IMG/VR virus record: IMGVR_UViG_3300043409_001462 | Coordinates: 64,001-128,000 of that record | Direction: 5' to 3' (one strand) | DNA length: 64,000 nt | Origin: a virus | Shown: positions 45,305 through 49,711 of the stretch, in pieces | How positions within the stretch are numbered: the first letter of the stretch is position 1 | Layout of the letters: each line of letters begins with the position of its first letter | Notes under the pieces: model-generated | Told to the model about the DNA's origin: nothing | The model's database searches: none | The model's input: only the letters and a program-made list of their open reading frames with translations | Program-made: the position numbers and the translations under genes

Positions 45305-45382
45305 CCTCCGTTGGTGTAGCGGTCTAACATACCCGCCTTTCAAGCGCGGAGATCATCGGTTCAAATCCGATACGGAGGACCA
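45305..45382 (+). tRNA. tRNA-Glu(UUC)
   Basis: Loop CTTTCAA; one anticodon-stem mismatch; CCA. Confidence 0.85.
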
Positions 45383-45388
45383 AATAAT

Positions 45389-45464
45389 GGACCATTAGCT
45401 CAGCTGGTAGAGCAGGAGACTCTTAATCTCTTTGTCGCAGGTTCGATCCCTGCATGGTTCACCA
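45389..45464 (+). tRNA. tRNA-Lys(CUU)
   Basis: Loop CTCTTAA; CCA. Confidence 0.93.
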
Positions 45465-45470
45465 AAGTTT

Positions 45471-45546
45471 TCCGCGATAGCTCAGTTGGTAGAGCGTCTG
45501 ACTGTTAATCAGAATGTCCCTGGTTCGAGCCCAGGTCGTGGAGCCA
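45471..45546 (+). tRNA. tRNA-Asn(GUU)
   Basis: Loop CTGTTAA; CCA. Confidence 0.94.
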
Positions 45547-45550
45547 ATTT

Positions 45551-45625
45551 GGTCCGTTAGCTCAGCGGAAGAGCAACTCCTTTACACGGAGAAGGTCGGC
45601 AGTTCAACCCTGTCACGGACTACCA
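45551..45625 (+). tRNA. tRNA-Val(UAC)
   Basis: Loop TTTACAC; CCA. Confidence 0.92.
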
Positions 45626-45629
45626 TTAT

Positions 45630-45705
45630 GGGGACATAGCTCAGTTGGGAGAGCGTCTGATTTGCATTCAGAAGGTCTGCGGTTCGATCCCGCATGTCTC
45701 CACCA
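45630..45705 (+). tRNA. tRNA-Ala(UGC)
   Basis: G3:U70 pair; loop TTTGCAT; CCA. Confidence 0.93.
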
Positions 45706-46994: not shown

Positions 46995-47591
46995 ATGATT
47001 AGCAAACATTTATTGAATGAATTGAATTATATTGTAATTGATAGTGGTGTAAAGATGGAAGGTAATTTGTTTTACTACCATCAGACGACACCATCTGATA
47101 ATCTTTACGAACCTTTCGAAAAGAAACGTCAGAACCTACAGCTATTGGCTAAGAAGTTTGATAACATTATGGAGATCGGTTTCAATGCTGGCCATAGTGC
47201 TGCTTTGATGCTCGAAGCCAATCCTAATCTGTTCTTGGTTAGCATCGATATTGGTGAACATAGCTATGTTTCTTCATGCGGAAAGGCTATTCAATCTGCT
47301 TTCCCTGGAAGGCACCAGCTTATCATCAAGGATTCGAAGCTTATCACTCAGAAAGAAATTAGCTTCGCTCAAGCTGTCATCGTTGATGGTGGTCATGAAT
47401 TTGATGATTGCTCTGCAGACTTGGAGTTGTGTAAAACGTACTGCGCGCCAGGAACAGTTATCGTTATCGACGATATTGATTTGAATGGAGTGCAGCTTGC
47501 GTATAGGCATCACTCTAGAAGTTTGTCAGTATGGAAAGATATTGAAACAATATATAACCAAGCTTTCTTCACATTAAACTCGCCCGAGTAG
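46995..47591 (+). CDS. Class I SAM-dependent methyltransferase (Methyltransf_24-like)
   Basis: MEIGFNAGHS, VDGGH, VIDD motifs. Confidence 0.8.
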   Translation: MISKHLLNELNYIVIDSGVKMEGNLFYYHQTTPSDNLYEPFEKKRQNLQLLAKKFDNIMEIGFNAGHSAALMLEANPNLFLVSIDIGEHSYVSSCGKAIQSAFPGRHQLIIKDSKLITQKEISFAQAVIVDGGHEFDDCSADLELCKTYCAPGTVIVIDDIDLNGVQLAYRHHSRSLSVWKDIETIYNQAFFTLNSPE

Positions 47592-47658
47592 TCCAATTGG
47601 CAGAGGCGCTGGTCTTAGAAACCAGATGTTGGGGGTTCAAATCCCTCCTCGGGCACCA
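47582..47658 (+). tRNA. tRNA-Leu(UAG), short variable loop
   Basis: Loop CTTAGAA; A73; CCA; 5-nt variable region. Confidence 0.85.
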
Positions 47659-47662
47659 TTTT

Positions 47663-47774
47663 AGGTTGTGTTCAGCATACAATGGATGAACCAGTCGGTC
47701 GGGTGTTCGAGTCACCCCAGGAGCTCCTTGCTTCTGTAGCTCAGTGGTAGAGCAACTGCCAAAAAGTACAACCT
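47663..47774 (+). ncRNA. Array unit 1: YrlA-like RNA with circularly permuted tRNA module
   Basis: AGGTTGTG/TACAACCT closing stem; T-arm 47701-47717, loop-closed 7-bp acceptor stem 47718-47736, D-arm 47739-47753. Confidence 0.8.
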
Positions 47775-47788
47775 GTTGAAAATAGTGC

Positions 47789-47817
47789 TTGACTTATCCG
47801 TAGATAAAGCGTATTAT
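47789..47817 (+). promoter_or_regulatory. Promoter for array units 2-6 and DUF2828 gene
   Basis: TTGACT-17-TATTAT. Confidence 0.7.
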
Positions 47818-47833
47818 ATGTGTATTGAGTTTG

Positions 47834-47968
47834 AGATTGACCGTTCAGCAAACAGCTTTTGATCAAGCTAGTAGCCCCTGGGCTACGTATAGACTGGCTT
47901 TATACCTGGTCTCCAGTGGTTGTTTCTTCGGGCGTCCACTATAAAAAAATGAAATAAGAAGTCAATCT
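47834..47968 (+). ncRNA. Array unit 2: Y-RNA-like, multi-hairpin cargo
   Basis: AGATTGAC/GTCAATCT stem; GTTCAGCA motif; CTGTTGAG linker. Confidence 0.7.
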
Positions 47969-47978
47969 GTTGAGTTTT

Positions 47979-48067
47979 AGGAAGCATTCGGCAAACAATT
48001 ATTGATTGGTTCAACTCCAATACCAGCGGTTCACGCTAGTACGCCTCGTGTGGGGCAACTGCTTCCT
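47979..48067 (+). ncRNA. Array unit 3: degenerate YrlA-like RNA
   Basis: AGGAAGCA/TGCTTCCT stem; TTCGGCA; T-arm ATTGG-TTCAACT-CCAAT, acceptor-like and D-like hairpins. Confidence 0.7.
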
Positions 48068-48077
48068 GTTGAGTTCT

Positions 48078-48135
48078 AGGATTGTTACAGCATAAATGCA
48101 CTTGATTTGTAATCAAACCCGCAAAGGGCAATCCT
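48078..48135 (+). ncRNA. Array unit 4: Y-RNA-like with Thr(UGU) anticodon-arm mimic
   Basis: AGGATTG/CAATCCT stem; TTACAGCA; TTGA-TTTGTAA-TCAA. Confidence 0.7.
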
Positions 48136-48145
48136 GTTGAGTTTT

Positions 48146-48197
48146 AGGGTCAGTTCCGCATCTAAAATGATTGCATATATCAAACCAAGATGACCCT
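48146..48197 (+). ncRNA. Array unit 5: Y-RNA-like with 7-nt-loop hairpin
   Basis: AGGGTCA/TGACCCT stem; GTTCCGCA; TGAT-TGCATAT-ATCA. Confidence 0.7.
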
Positions 48198-48206
48198 GTT
48201 GAGTTT

Positions 48207-48259
48207 AGATTCAGTTCCGCAACCAATCAAATCGACTTGAAATCGACCAAAGTGAATCT
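48207..48259 (+). ncRNA. Array unit 6: Y-RNA-like with Ser(UGA) anticodon-arm mimic
   Basis: AGATTCA/TGAATCT stem; GTTCCGCA; TCGA-CTTGAAA-TCGA. Confidence 0.7.
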
Positions 48260-48280
48260 GTCGTAAAATGGAGAAGTGAA

Positions 48281-49711
48281 ATGAATACCTTTGTAAATGC
48301 CGTTGTTAATCAGGAAGCTCGTACCGAAAATGGTATGAAGGCTCGCCAGTCTACTGCTAATGCATTGACTGATCTGTTCTTCAAGATCGGTGCTATGCGT
48401 GGTCAGAATGTAATTCCTGCTTGGACTGCTGCTCGTGCTCATGATACTTTGCTTGCATCTCGTATCGCTCTTTGGGCACGTGATGTTCGTGGTGGTGCTG
48501 GTGAACGTAAAATCTTCCGTGACATTTTAGTTGATCTTGCTTCAGCTGATCCTCATCGTGGTGTGGCTCTTGGTCGTAAGATTCCAGAGCTTGGTCGTTG
48601 GGATGACTTCCTTGTGTTCGTTGGTACCCCTCTTGAGGAGTATGCGTTCGAAACTATCCGCGAAGCTCTCGAAGCTGGTAATGGTCTCTGTGCAAAGTGG
48701 ATGCCTCGTCAAGGTGAAACAGCTGTAAAGCTTCGTAAGTACCTTGGTTGGACTCCTAAGTTCTACCGAAAGCGTCTGGTTGAATTGACCAAGGTTGTCG
48801 AAACTCAGATGTGCGCTAAGGACTGGGATAACATCAACTTCAACCATGTTCCTTCGGTTGCTTCTTCTCGTTACAAGAAGGCATTCGCTCGTCATACTGA
48901 CAAGTACAAGGAATGGACTGCGGCTCTTGTTTCTACTGATCCAGAGGTGGCTAAGTCTGTTAAGGTCAATGCTGGTGCGGTTTATCCTTACGATGTGTTG
49001 AAGGGTGTGATTAATCATTATGGGCGTTATGATCAATCTAACTTGAATCATATCCTTGCTCAGTGGGAAGCTTTGCCTAACTTCGTTGGTAATGCTAACA
49101 TTCTTCCGCTTGTTGACGTTTCTGGTTCAATGACTTCGAAGGCTGGTGGTTATCAGTCAAAGTCAGAAGTAACCTGCCTTGATGTTGCAGTTTCTCTTGG
49201 TCTGTATCTCGCAGACAAAAACAAGGGTAAGTTCAAGGATACTTTCTTGACCTTCTCTAGCGATCCTCAGCTGCTTCATCTTCGCGGTAACATCCTCGAT
49301 AAGGTAAAGCAGATGGTATCTTCAAAGTGGGAAATGAACACCAATTTGCATCGTGCGTTGGATAAGATCCTTCGCACCGCGATTGAAGGTAACGTTCCTC
49401 AGTCAGAAATGCCAGGTGCATTGTTGATCCTTTCTGATATGCAGTTTGATTCTTGCACTCGTCACGATGACTCTGCTATGGAAATGATTAAGCGTAAGTA
49501 TGTTGATGCTGGTTACAATGTACCTAACATTGTGTTCTGGAATCTCAATGCTCACGACAATGTTCCTGTCAAGTATGACACTCGTGGTGCTGCTCTTGTT
49601 TCTGGTTTCTCACCTTCTATCGTTAAGGCTGTTCTGCAGGCTGAGATGGATAACTTTACGCCAGAAGCTATCATGATGCAAACCATTATGAACCCACGAT
49701 ATGACTACTAA
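48281..49711 (+). CDS. DUF2828-family protein (Ro60/TROVE-like helical domain + C-terminal vWA)
   Basis: TENG, RDVRGG.GER, AKWMPR, VPSVA..YKKAF..H; MIDAS DVSGSM; SDMQFD, FWNL, SGFS. Confidence 0.8.
   Translation: MNTFVNAVVNQEARTENGMKARQSTANALTDLFFKIGAMRGQNVIPAWTAARAHDTLLASRIALWARDVRGGAGERKIFRDILVDLASADPHRGVALGRKIPELGRWDDFLVFVGTPLEEYAFETIREALEAGNGLCAKWMPRQGETAVKLRKYLGWTPKFYRKRLVELTKVVETQMCAKDWDNINFNHVPSVASSRYKKAFARHTDKYKEWTAALVSTDPEVAKSVKVNAGAVYPYDVLKGVINHYGRYDQSNLNHILAQWEALPNFVGNANILPLVDVSGSMTSKAGGYQSKSEVTCLDVAVSLGLYLADKNKGKFKDTFLTFSSDPQLLHLRGNILDKVKQMVSSKWEMNTNLHRALDKILRTAIEGNVPQSEMPGALLILSDMQFDSCTRHDDSAMEMIKRKYVDAGYNVPNIVFWNLNAHDNVPVKYDTRGAALVSGFSPSIVKAVLQAEMDNFTPEAIMMQTIMNPRYDY

What the first reader, a model, noticed from the sequence alone, without database searches (positions are those of the whole stretch)
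47663..48067. Units 1 and 3 contain circularly permuted tRNA bodies (YrlA architecture)
Seen in unit 1, in order: CAGT (47692-95); 5-nt variable loop; T-arm GGGTG-TTCGAGT-CACCC; 7-bp acceptor stem CAGGAGC/GCTTCTG sealed by a TCCTT loop; TA; D-arm GCTC-AGTGGTA-GAGC; then ACTG pairing back to CAGT. This is a tRNA with the acceptor end closed and the anticodon loop replaced by the handle stem. Unit 3 repeats the order (T-arm ATTGG-TTCAACT-CCAAT, 7-bp stem with one mismatch and 5-nt loop, D-like hairpin). Known: this T-acceptor-D permutation defines YrlA RNAs that partner Ro60. It is the strongest independent link between DUF2828 and Ro60 biology.
Basis: partly seen in the sequence, partly recalled or inferred. 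Interest (0 to 1): 0.78.

Follow-up and report, generated by a model that had tools for sequence, protein, structure and literature searches.

The report
Phage tRNA-mimic Y-like RNAs, Ro60-like partner
Two of six small RNA genes upstream of a phage gene for a Ro60-shaped protein fold like a tRNA whose acceptor end is sealed and whose ends lie on the anticodon side, as in bacterial YrlA Y RNAs, and they belong to a large conserved RNA family for which I found no Rfam family or published description.

Summary
Unit 1 (47662-47775) holds variable loop, T arm, loop-sealed 7-bp acceptor stem, U8-A9, D arm and R26, closed by a 4-bp stem and an 8-bp terminal helix. Unit 3 (47978-48068) is a pared-down version with a degenerate D loop.

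Neither is a decayed tRNA.
- **Unit 1 class:** in 19 distinct homologs, 97.8% of pair cells are paired. 23 of 28 pairs show compensatory changes, and the Levitt 15:48 tertiary pair covaries.
- **Unit 3 class:** in 15 sequences, 88% of cells are paired and 18 of 24 pairs are compensatory.
- **Origin:** no resident tRNA is a close parent.

The adjacent DUF2828/DUF7788 protein is predicted to fold like Ro60: the top 12 PDB matches are all Ro60. An RNA-only pattern scan finds this protein family on the same contig in 42 of 43 cases checked.

The architecture is that of YrlA, but membership of Rfam YrlA fails. Scores are 27-40 bits against a threshold of 69, and the GNCGAA motif is absent. A UUCNGCAA handle takes its place.

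I read this as a new variant of the Ro60/Y-RNA particle. RNA-protein binding and function are inferred, not shown. This scan has already noted the same RNA family on other DNA many times. I found no publication describing it.

The parts
47582..47658 (+). tRNA-Leu(UAG) with encoded CCA. It ends 3 nt before unit 1, so unit 1 is probably co-transcribed with the tRNA cluster.
47662..47775 (+). Unit 1: a complete Y-like RNA with a tRNA-like body. The terminal helix is 47662-69 with 47768-75.
   Evidence: CM R1 143.8 bits. Rfam YrlA 39.1 bits. Covariation.
47671..47678 (+). Conserved single-stranded handle motif UUCAGCAU next to the 5' strand of the terminal helix. This is the presumed protein-binding site.
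   Evidence: CNGCA is present in 85 of 91 distinct units. GNCGAA is present in 0 of 91.
47692..47758 (+). tRNA-like domain of unit 1: CAGT, variable loop, T arm, sealed acceptor stem, U8 A9, D arm, A26, ACTG.
   Evidence: Sequence. tRNA tertiary nucleotides are kept in 18-19 of 19 homologs. ARAGORN of 19 un-permuted constructs tRNA.
47789..47817 (+). Sigma-70-like promoter TTGACT-17-TATTAT between unit 1 and unit 2.
   Evidence: 10 of 12 matches. This is a consensus match only.
47978..48068 (+). Unit 3: a Y-like RNA with a minimised tRNA elbow. The terminal helix is 47978-86 with 48060-68, and the handle motif UUCGGCAA lies at 47987-94.
   Evidence: CM R2 101 bits and R1 34 bits. Covariation.
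48005..48056 (+). tRNA-like body of unit 3: T arm, 7-bp sealed acceptor-like stem with a C.A mismatch, AC, and a D-like hairpin with a degenerate loop.
48281..49711 (+). DUF2828/DUF7788 gene (476 aa). The protein is predicted to be a Ro60-fold ring plus a vWA domain with DVSGS, and is the presumed protein partner.
   Evidence: Pfam. AlphaFold2 model. Foldseek top 12 hits are all Ro60. Invariant D279-S283.

Best explanation
Units 1 and 3 are functional small RNAs of a phage Y-RNA-like family, not tRNA debris.

**Anatomy.** Each unit is closed by an 8-9 bp terminal helix. The helix begins UAGG and ends CCUG, and its middle pairs vary freely. A conserved unpaired motif UUCNGCAA follows the 5' strand. 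This 'handle' is shared with the four other units of the array.
- Unit 1 carries a full tRNA elbow on the handle: variable loop, T arm, an acceptor stem sealed by a short loop, U8-A9, D arm and R26.
- Unit 3 carries a stripped-down elbow: T arm, sealed acceptor stem and a D-like hairpin.

**Proposed mechanism.** The RNA works like bacterial YrlA. The handle binds the Ro60-shaped DUF2828 protein encoded 0.2-0.6 kb downstream. The L-shaped tRNA mimic is held out to proteins that recognise the tRNA elbow. Candidates are modification enzymes, RNase P, an exonuclease such as PNPase, and host tRNA-directed nucleases.

**Shown here.** The fold, its conservation and covariation, the tRNA-type tertiary nucleotides, the Ro60 fold prediction, and the co-occurrence of RNA and gene.

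**Inferred.** That the RNA binds the protein, that the handle is the binding site, and what the particle does.
For: Structure
- Unit 1 coordinates are exact.
- 9 relatives: 96% of cells paired, 12 pairs compensatory, 0 of 500 shuffles as good.
- 19 distinct homologs: 97.8% paired, 23 of 28 pairs compensatory, and only 32-53% paired when partners are slid.
- Levitt 48:15 reads C:G 12, U:A 3, A:U 2.
- U8, A14, GG and A21 are kept in 18 of 19. G53, T54, T55, C56, A58 and C61 are kept in 19 of 19.
- With the halves re-ordered and a resident anticodon arm grafted in, ARAGORN of 19 constructs tRNA. It of 25 native units and 5 of 19 mismatched halves.
- Unit 3 class: 15 sequences, 88% paired, 18 of 24 pairs compensatory, all 7 acceptor pairs covary.

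Link to the protein
- All 171 R1 matches are on the gene's strand. Of the best 150, 128 lie upstream of the gene and none inside it.
- An RNA-only pattern scan of IMG/VR gave 120 or more stretches. 33 of 80 loci hold DUF2828 in the held flank, all 33 on the same strand.
- 9 of 10 large contigs without it in the flank encode it elsewhere on the contig.
- For comparison, 711 of 50,697 phage records hold the gene.
- The protein model's top 12 PDB matches are all Ro60, with TM up to 0.58 to Thermus phage phiLo Ro60.

Same RNA type in cultured phages that encode DUF2828
- Mycobacterium phage Kahlid, 46 bits.
- Serratia phage BF, 68 and 35 bits.
- Synechococcus phage BUCT-ZZ01, 36 bits; a Felix O1-type phage, 21 bits.
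- A KVP40-type phage, 33 bits.
Against: - No direct evidence exists for transcription, processing or RNA-protein binding.
- Rfam YrlA scores only 39 bits against a gathering score of 69. It reaches 27-40 bits in 9 of 11 relatives.
- The YrlA/Ro60 contact motif GNCGAA is absent.
- The protein has no Pfam TROVE match at E <= 10 and no sequence match to any solved Ro60. Its Ro60 likeness rests on a predicted model of moderate confidence (pLDDT 76, TM 0.36-0.58).
- In Serratia phage BF the RNAs lie about 200 kb from the gene, so adjacency is not obligatory.
- This phage encodes no RtcB, Rnl2-type ligase or CCA-adding enzyme, so a repair role finds no support in its own gene set.
- Unit 3 of this window has a degenerate D loop with no A14 and no GG. 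It may not form a true elbow.
Confidence: 0.75

Rival explanations
1. The units are decayed remains of a tandem tRNA duplication: the 3' half of one copy joined to the 5' half of the next, with no function.
For: The junction of two adjacent tRNA genes does resemble the permuted layout. R1 positions 40-97 match junctions such as window 45434-45496 at 20-27 bits. The element lies inside a tRNA cluster. This may well be how the family first arose.
Against: The fold is maintained by compensatory changes across homologs whose partner proteins are only 61-93% identical. All tertiary-contact nucleotides are kept. No resident tRNA is a close parent: the best is 36 of 54 positions. The same handle closes units with quite different cargo.
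Confidence: 0.02
2. The units are permuted tRNA genes, as in the red alga Cyanidioschyzon. The transcript would be circularised and re-cut to give a normal decoding tRNA.
For: All tRNA parts except the anticodon loop are present in unit 1. In some relatives a small hairpin with a 7-nt anticodon-like loop lies 5' of the variable loop.
Against: Unit 1 of this window has no anticodon loop. The acceptor-closing loops are 3-9 nt and carry no conserved CCA or discriminator. The ends are locked in a conserved helix plus motif that non-tRNA units share. Unit 3 lacks an anticodon stem altogether. The phage already carries 25 ordinary tRNAs.
Confidence: 0.03
3. The units are tRNA-like decoys or processing signals that act without the DUF2828 protein. 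They might be bait for host anticodon nucleases or other tRNA-directed defences, or RNase P/RNase Z punctuation marks that cut the array into units.
For: The elbow is the feature read by RNase P, RNase Z and many tRNA enzymes (general knowledge; Chen 2014 showed RNase P cleavage of M. smegmatis YrlA). The array sits among tRNA genes. In Serratia phage BF the RNAs lie far from the gene.
Against: RNA and gene occur on the same contig in 42 of 43 cases checked, starting from an RNA-only search. They lie on the same strand in 33 of 33 loci where both fall in the held stretch. The conserved handle has no role in a pure decoy model. The two ideas are not exclusive, since a protein-bound decoy is possible.
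Confidence: 0.12
4. The units are true but highly divergent YrlA homologs, and DUF2828 is a divergent TROVE Ro60. On this view it is the same family by descent rather than a parallel invention.
For: YrlA is the only Rfam family besides tRNA that matches, and it does so consistently: unit 1 plus 9 of 11 relatives. The module order is the same. The protein has the Ro60 fold with a vWA domain.
Against: The match comes only from the tRNA-like part, which any tRNA-derived module would share. The handle motif differs. Chen et al. themselves argue that YrlA and Yrn1 arose from tRNA independently (PMC4201824, section 10), so convergence has a precedent.
Confidence: 0.3

Closest known systems
YrlA (Y RNA-like A; Rfam RF02553), bound by Rsr/Ro60 in Salmonella, M. 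smegmatis and some mycobacteriophages (Chen et al. 2014, PMC4201824)
   Same: The 5' and 3' ends pair. The internal tRNA-like domain has the order (V)-T arm-closed acceptor-like stem-D arm. The T and D loops are of tRNA type. The Levitt 15:48 pair covaries. The gene lies close to, and on the strand of, a Ro60-fold protein gene. More than one Y-like RNA occurs per locus.
   Different: The Rfam score is far below the gathering threshold. GNCGAAN0-1G is absent and a UUCNGCAA motif next to a UAGG/CCUG-framed helix takes its place. The partner is DUF2828/DUF7788, not Pfam TROVE. There are six units in a tandem array joined by CUGUUGAGUUUUAG-type linkers. A minimised class (unit 3) lacks the V arm and the anticodon-like stem.
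Thermus phage phiLo Ro60 with Yrl1 and Yrl2 (PMC12135203; PDB 9KOP, 9L5Y)
   Same: It is a phage-encoded Ro60-fold protein with Y-like RNAs encoded just upstream. It is also the best structural match to the window's protein.
   Different: The phiLo RNAs were picked by a CGAA motif and a stem-bulge-stem shape, and no tRNA-like domain is reported in the text I read. No sequence-level similarity is detectable between the proteins.
D. radiodurans Yrn1 and metazoan Y RNAs with Ro60
   Same: A terminal helix acts as the protein-binding module and a variable effector module is displayed. Yrn1 has a T-arm-like hairpin.
   Different: They have a different arm order, the Ro-binding helix carries a different conserved sequence, and metazoan Y RNAs have no tRNA-like domain (PMC4201824, section 10).
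Class I RNAs of Dictyostelia (Kjellin et al. 2021, PMC7919456)
   Same: They have a short terminal stem with covarying pairs. An unpaired 11-nt motif abuts the 5' strand, with C6, C9, A10 and A11 conserved. The 3' end reads CUGU. The phage handle reads ...U(U/A)CAGCAA and ...CCUGU.
   Different: They are eukaryotic, 42-65 nt long, and no tRNA-like cargo is described. Their reported binder is an RRM protein, and no link to DUF2828 is reported. The resemblance came as a lead from earlier notes and I checked it only against the paper's text.

Membership tests
YrlA (Rfam RF02553) | Score at or above the Rfam gathering threshold (69 bits) | tested here: not met
   Unit 1 scores 39.1 bits and is not reported at gathering on the window. 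9 of 11 relatives score 27-40 bits. The 7 loci from cultured phages gave no hit at E <= 0.1.
YrlA (Chen et al. 2014) | tRNA-like domain in the order T arm, closed acceptor-like stem (AS), D arm, with tRNA-type loops | tested here: met
   The YrlA model aligns T, AS and D of unit 1 at high posterior probability.
YrlA (Chen et al. 2014) | Compensatory change at the Levitt 15:48 tertiary pair | tested here: met
   C:G 12, U:A 3, A:U 2 and other 1 among 19 distinct homologs.
YrlA (Chen et al. 2014) | GNCGAAN0-1G motif near the 5' end (the proposed Ro60 contact) | tested here: not met
   Present in 0 of 91 distinct units and nowhere in 47660-48280.
YrlA (Chen et al. 2014) | Encoded within 4 kb of the Ro60 ortholog, on the same strand | tested here: met
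   Unit 1 ends 506 nt and unit 3 ends 213 nt upstream of the gene, on the same strand. All 171 R1 matches are on the gene's strand, and 128 of the best 150 lie upstream of it.
YrlA (Chen et al. 2014) | Partner protein carries a Pfam TROVE domain | tested here: not met
   Only DUF2828 and DUF7788 match at E <= 10.
YrlA (Chen et al. 2014) | Pseudouridine 55 and dihydrouridine present, RNase P cleavage, physical binding to Ro60 | not testable with these tools
   Needs experiments.
Ro60 / TROVE proteins | Ring of HEAT-like repeats followed by a vWA domain with a MIDAS motif | tested here: met
   The top 12 Foldseek PDB hits are Ro60 chains, E down to 4e-7. DVSGS at 279-283 is invariant in 25 homologs. 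This rests on a predicted model with pLDDT 76.
Canonical tRNA (RF00005) | Contiguous cloverleaf with free acceptor ends and an anticodon loop | tested here: not met
   There is no tRNA call at units 1 or 3. ARAGORN of 25 native units.
Permuted tRNA genes (Cyanidioschyzon type) | All tRNA parts, including the anticodon loop, present in permuted order, so that processing gives a working tRNA | tested here: not met
   Unit 1 and unit 3 of the window have no 7-nt anticodon loop. The acceptor loops carry no conserved CCA.
Dictyostelid Class I RNAs | Terminal stem, 11-nt motif with T3 C6 C9 A10 A11, and a 3' CUGU | tested here: inconclusive
   C6, A7, G8, C9, A10, A11 and CUGU fit the handle consensus (against PMC7919456). 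Position 3 does not fit. No Rfam family other than YrlA, tRNA and chance-level hits matched the array at E <= 10.

The most novel reading that the evidence does not exclude
DUF2828 proteins and constant-handle RNAs form a second Ro/Y-type ribonucleoprotein system, widespread in phages. One protein-binding handle displays interchangeable tRNA parts: a full elbow, a mini elbow, a bare T arm, or anticodon arms. These would serve as bait or adaptor for host tRNA-directed nucleases and tRNA enzymes. Because the same handle occurs in Dictyostelium Class I RNAs, eukaryotic DUF2828 proteins might be the missing partner of those RNAs.
Probability: 0.25. Interest if true: 0.85.

Novelty: new variant of a known kind. 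Interest (0 to 1): 0.62.

Why it matters
Ro60/Y-RNA particles are a long-studied but poorly understood RNA-surveillance system. The purpose of the tRNA mimic in bacterial Y RNAs is still open.

This finding describes a parallel system with three differences from the known one: a different protein family by sequence, a different handle, and modular arrays. The RNA-only pattern scan found it in at least 120 IMG/VR stretches. It is also present in cultured phages of Serratia and Mycobacterium, with weaker matches in a Felix O1-type coliphage, a KVP40-type Vibrio phage and a Synechococcus phage.

That gives tractable systems for asking what a displayed tRNA elbow is for. It also assigns a likely role to two domains of unknown function, DUF2828 and DUF7788. 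And it explains unannotated or mis-annotated 'long tRNA' genes in phage tRNA clusters.

Tried and rejected
- A DNA search of the array against 50,697 phage records found only the neighbouring tRNA-Leu.
- Sequence and profile searches of the protein against PDB sequences found no Ro60. Only the fold comparison did.
- Rfam YrlA at E <= 0.1 found nothing in seven loci from cultured phages, although my own model did.
- I looked for RNA-repair partners in the phage's own 173-kb genome. RtcB, Rnl2-type ligase and CCA-adding enzyme are all absent.
- I looked for a parent tRNA among the 25 resident tRNAs and found none close.
- MAFFT alone misaligned the unit-3 class, giving 81% paired. A model-based alignment gave 88%.
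- The supplementary phage list of Chen et al. 2014 is not held, so I could not check directly whether any DUF2828 phage was in their set.
- The MFE fold of unit 1 draws a GUUCA/UGAAC hairpin that would bury part of the handle motif. It is not consistently present in relatives, so I did not adopt it.
- I did not use the complex predictor, because it does not take RNA.

Full report
**Setting.** The window is part of a 173,384-bp virus record rated 100% complete. It carries 25 tRNA genes on the + strand. Between tRNA-Leu (47582-47658) and a 476-aa gene (48281-49711) lie six stem-closed units. The gene matches Pfam DUF7788 (E 4e-48) and DUF2828 (E 2e-17). The finding concerns units 1 and 3.

**Observation.**
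- In tRNA numbering, unit 1 reads: 40-43 CAGT, 44-48 CGGTC, T arm 49-65, acceptor 3' strand 66-72, a 5-nt closing loop, acceptor 5' strand 1-7, U8 A9, D arm 10-25, A26, 27-30 ACTG.
- An 8-bp terminal helix (47662-69 with 47768-75) closes the unit.
- Unit 1 folds better than all 200 shuffles (z = -2.7).
- Unit 3 has the same order without the 4-bp stem. Its acceptor-like stem has one C.A mismatch, and its D-like loop CGUGUG lacks A14 and GG. Its fold is less exceptional (z = -1.9).

**Comparison with the YrlA model.** At Rfam's gathering threshold only tRNAs are reported in the window. In a permissive search of 741 nt, YrlA (RF02553) is the only meaningful non-tRNA match. It scores 39.1 bits with E 5e-7, and the T arm, closed stem and D arm align at high posterior probability. 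The Ro60-binding half of the model aligns poorly. The same holds for 9 of 11 relatives, at 27-40 bits and never reaching 69.

**Conservation of unit 1.**
- A scan of IMG/VR with the protein gave 80 loci at 61-93% identity. BLASTN then found unit-1 homologs in several of them.
- Nine homologs aligned with obvious compensatory changes.
- A covariance model built from them (R1) found 25 full-length matches of 63 bits or more, 19 of them distinct. All lie on the gene's strand.
- On that alignment 97.8% of cells are paired and 23 of 28 pairs show changes on both sides. No shuffle reaches this, and sliding the partners drops pairing to 32-53%. All seven acceptor pairs vary while pairing is kept.
- The tertiary Levitt pair 48:15 covaries: C:G 12, U:A 3, A:U 2.
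- U8, A14, G18G19 and A21 are kept in 18 of 19. G53, T54, T55, C56, A58 and C61 are kept in 19 of 19.
- I re-ordered the two halves and grafted in the anticodon arm of the resident tRNA-Gly. ARAGORN then called 19 of 19 constructs tRNA. It called 0 of 25 native units and 5 of 19 constructs with mismatched halves.

**Conservation of unit 3.**
- A MAFFT alignment of 11 look-alikes already showed covariation.
- A second model (R2) collected 15 distinct minimised units. In these, 88% of cells are paired and 18 of 24 pairs are compensatory, with 0 of 500 shuffles as good. The T arm is 100% paired and all 7 acceptor-like pairs covary.
- Relatives mostly have tRNA-type D loops such as AAUGGU, UUGGUA and AGCGGU. 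The window's lineage has lost these features.
- ARAGORN accepts 7 of 11 un-permuted constructs, including the window's unit 3.
- Unit 3 is therefore a real member of a conserved mini-elbow class, but it is the weaker half of the finding.

**Not a decayed or processed tRNA.**
- No resident tRNA resembles unit 1 closely. The best is 36 of 54 positions.
- The closing loops of the acceptor stem are 3-9 nt and carry no conserved CCA.
- The window's units have no anticodon loop.
- The same handle closes units with unrelated cargo.
- Junctions between adjacent tRNA genes do match the middle of R1 weakly. This suggests how such an RNA could have arisen.

**The handle.** Across 91 distinct units the consensus is UUUAGG-N4-N-U-(U/A)-CAGCAAA on the 5' side and AAAA-N-N4-CCUGUUGA on the 3' side. 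The YrlA motif GNCGAA occurs in none of them, while CNGCA occurs in 85.

**The protein.**
- Neither the sequence nor a 25-member profile finds any solved Ro60.
- An AlphaFold2 model (pLDDT 76) has Ro60 chains as its top 12 Foldseek matches. These include Thermus phage phiLo Ro60 (TM 0.55-0.58), Xenopus and human Ro60, and Deinococcus Rsr. After them come isolated vWA domains.
- DVSGS at 279-283 is invariant.
- Homologs occur in 711 of 50,697 phage records, and some are annotated 'Ro-like RNA binding protein'. The Kahlid and Serratia BF proteins are likewise DUF2828 plus DUF7788 with no TROVE match.

**Association tested from the RNA side.**
- A pattern made only of handle, T-loop and D-arm letters found 120 or more stretches in IMG/VR.
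- Of 80 loci returned, 33 contain a DUF2828 homolog in the held flank, and all 33 are on the RNA's strand.
- Of ten large contigs without it in the flank, nine encode it elsewhere. The exception is a contig rated 51% complete.

**Cultured phages.** R1 finds the same RNA type in several cultured phages.
- Just downstream of the 'Ro-like' gene of Mycobacterium phage Kahlid, 46 bits.
- Twice in Serratia phage BF, 68 and 35 bits, in unannotated spacers about 200 kb from the gene.
- In Synechococcus phage BUCT-ZZ01.
- Weakly in a Felix O1-type phage and a KVP40-type phage.

**Literature.**
- Chen et al. 2014 defined YrlA and searched only genomes with TROVE-annotated proteins.
- A 2025 paper describes Thermus phage Ro60 with two upstream Y-like RNAs chosen by a CGAA motif.
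- A jumbo-phage survey mentions TROVE proteins with a tRNA-like partner.
- Five papers mention DUF2828 and none concerns RNA.
- I found no description of this RNA family.
- Earlier notes of this scan report the same family on many other genomes. They also gave the lead that the handle resembles Dictyostelium Class I RNAs. The text of PMC7919456 is consistent with that.

**Mechanism.** By analogy with Ro60-YrlA, the handle most likely binds the DUF2828 ring, and the tRNA-shaped module is presented to elbow-reading proteins. This is inference. The phage has no RtcB, Rnl2-type ligase or CCA-adding enzyme of its own. In other phages the gene does lie near RNA ligases: a 'tRNA-splicing ligase' CDS in Listeria phage LMTA-57 and an RNA ligase in Serratia phage BF.

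**Verdict.** Membership of Rfam YrlA and of Pfam TROVE is not met. I classify it as a new variant of the Ro60/Y-RNA kind.

Noticed in passing
L029:2294-2422, L039:2357-2486, L040:2359-2488, L047:767-892, L005:2047-2174: In several unit-1 homologs, the segment 5' of the variable loop folds into a 3-4 bp hairpin with a 7-nt anticodon-like loop (CUUGUAA, CUUAUAA, CUGAAAA). Those RNAs therefore mimic all four tRNA arms, with the break at position 26/27. The window's unit 1 lacks this hairpin.
   Followed up: partly
window 47660-48270 and 91 units in L001-L080: The shared handle (terminal helix, UUCAGCAA-type motif, 3' CUGU) resembles the defining features of Dictyostelium Class I RNAs as stated in PMC7919456. 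I checked this only against the paper's text.
   Followed up: partly
L216 (Vibrio phage phi-pp2 JN849462.1 182676-183547): The record annotates four 'tRNAs' of 113-123 nt, two of them called tRNA-OTHER. An R1 match of 33 bits overlaps two of them. They may be mis-annotated Y-like RNAs.
   Followed up: partly
L085:470-1021 (Listeria phage LMTA-57): A ROOL RNA match of 88.5 bits, just under the gathering score of 99.1, lies about 1 kb upstream of the DUF2828 gene. A CDS annotated 'tRNA-splicing ligase' begins 1.3 kb downstream of it.
   Followed up: no
window 45434-45496 and 45590-45658: Junctions between adjacent tRNA genes match the middle of the permuted-tRNA model at 22-25 bits. This hints that the family arose from tandem tRNA genes.
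   Followed up: partly
window 48024 with 48038, and the same column in L001, L002, L012, L022: A C.A mismatch recurs at the third pair of the sealed acceptor stem in the unit-3 class: 6 of 15 sequences are unpaired there.
   Followed up: no
L158:3276-5617, L161:3964-6234, and record G010 114278-116805: In some IMG/VR contigs the DUF2828 match spans about 2.3 kb, or is split into two pieces about 1.1 kb apart. This may be an insertion or intron in the gene.
   Followed up: no
window 45305-45382: A tRNA with anticodon UCA lies in the phage tRNA cluster. ARAGORN labels it SeC and the Rfam tRNA model scores it at 54 bits. It may be an opal suppressor.
   Followed up: no
L012:1210-1995 compared with window 47660-48145: The order of homologous units differs between relatives. 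In L012, units 2, 3 and 4 precede unit 1, so the units are shuffled as modules.
   Followed up: no
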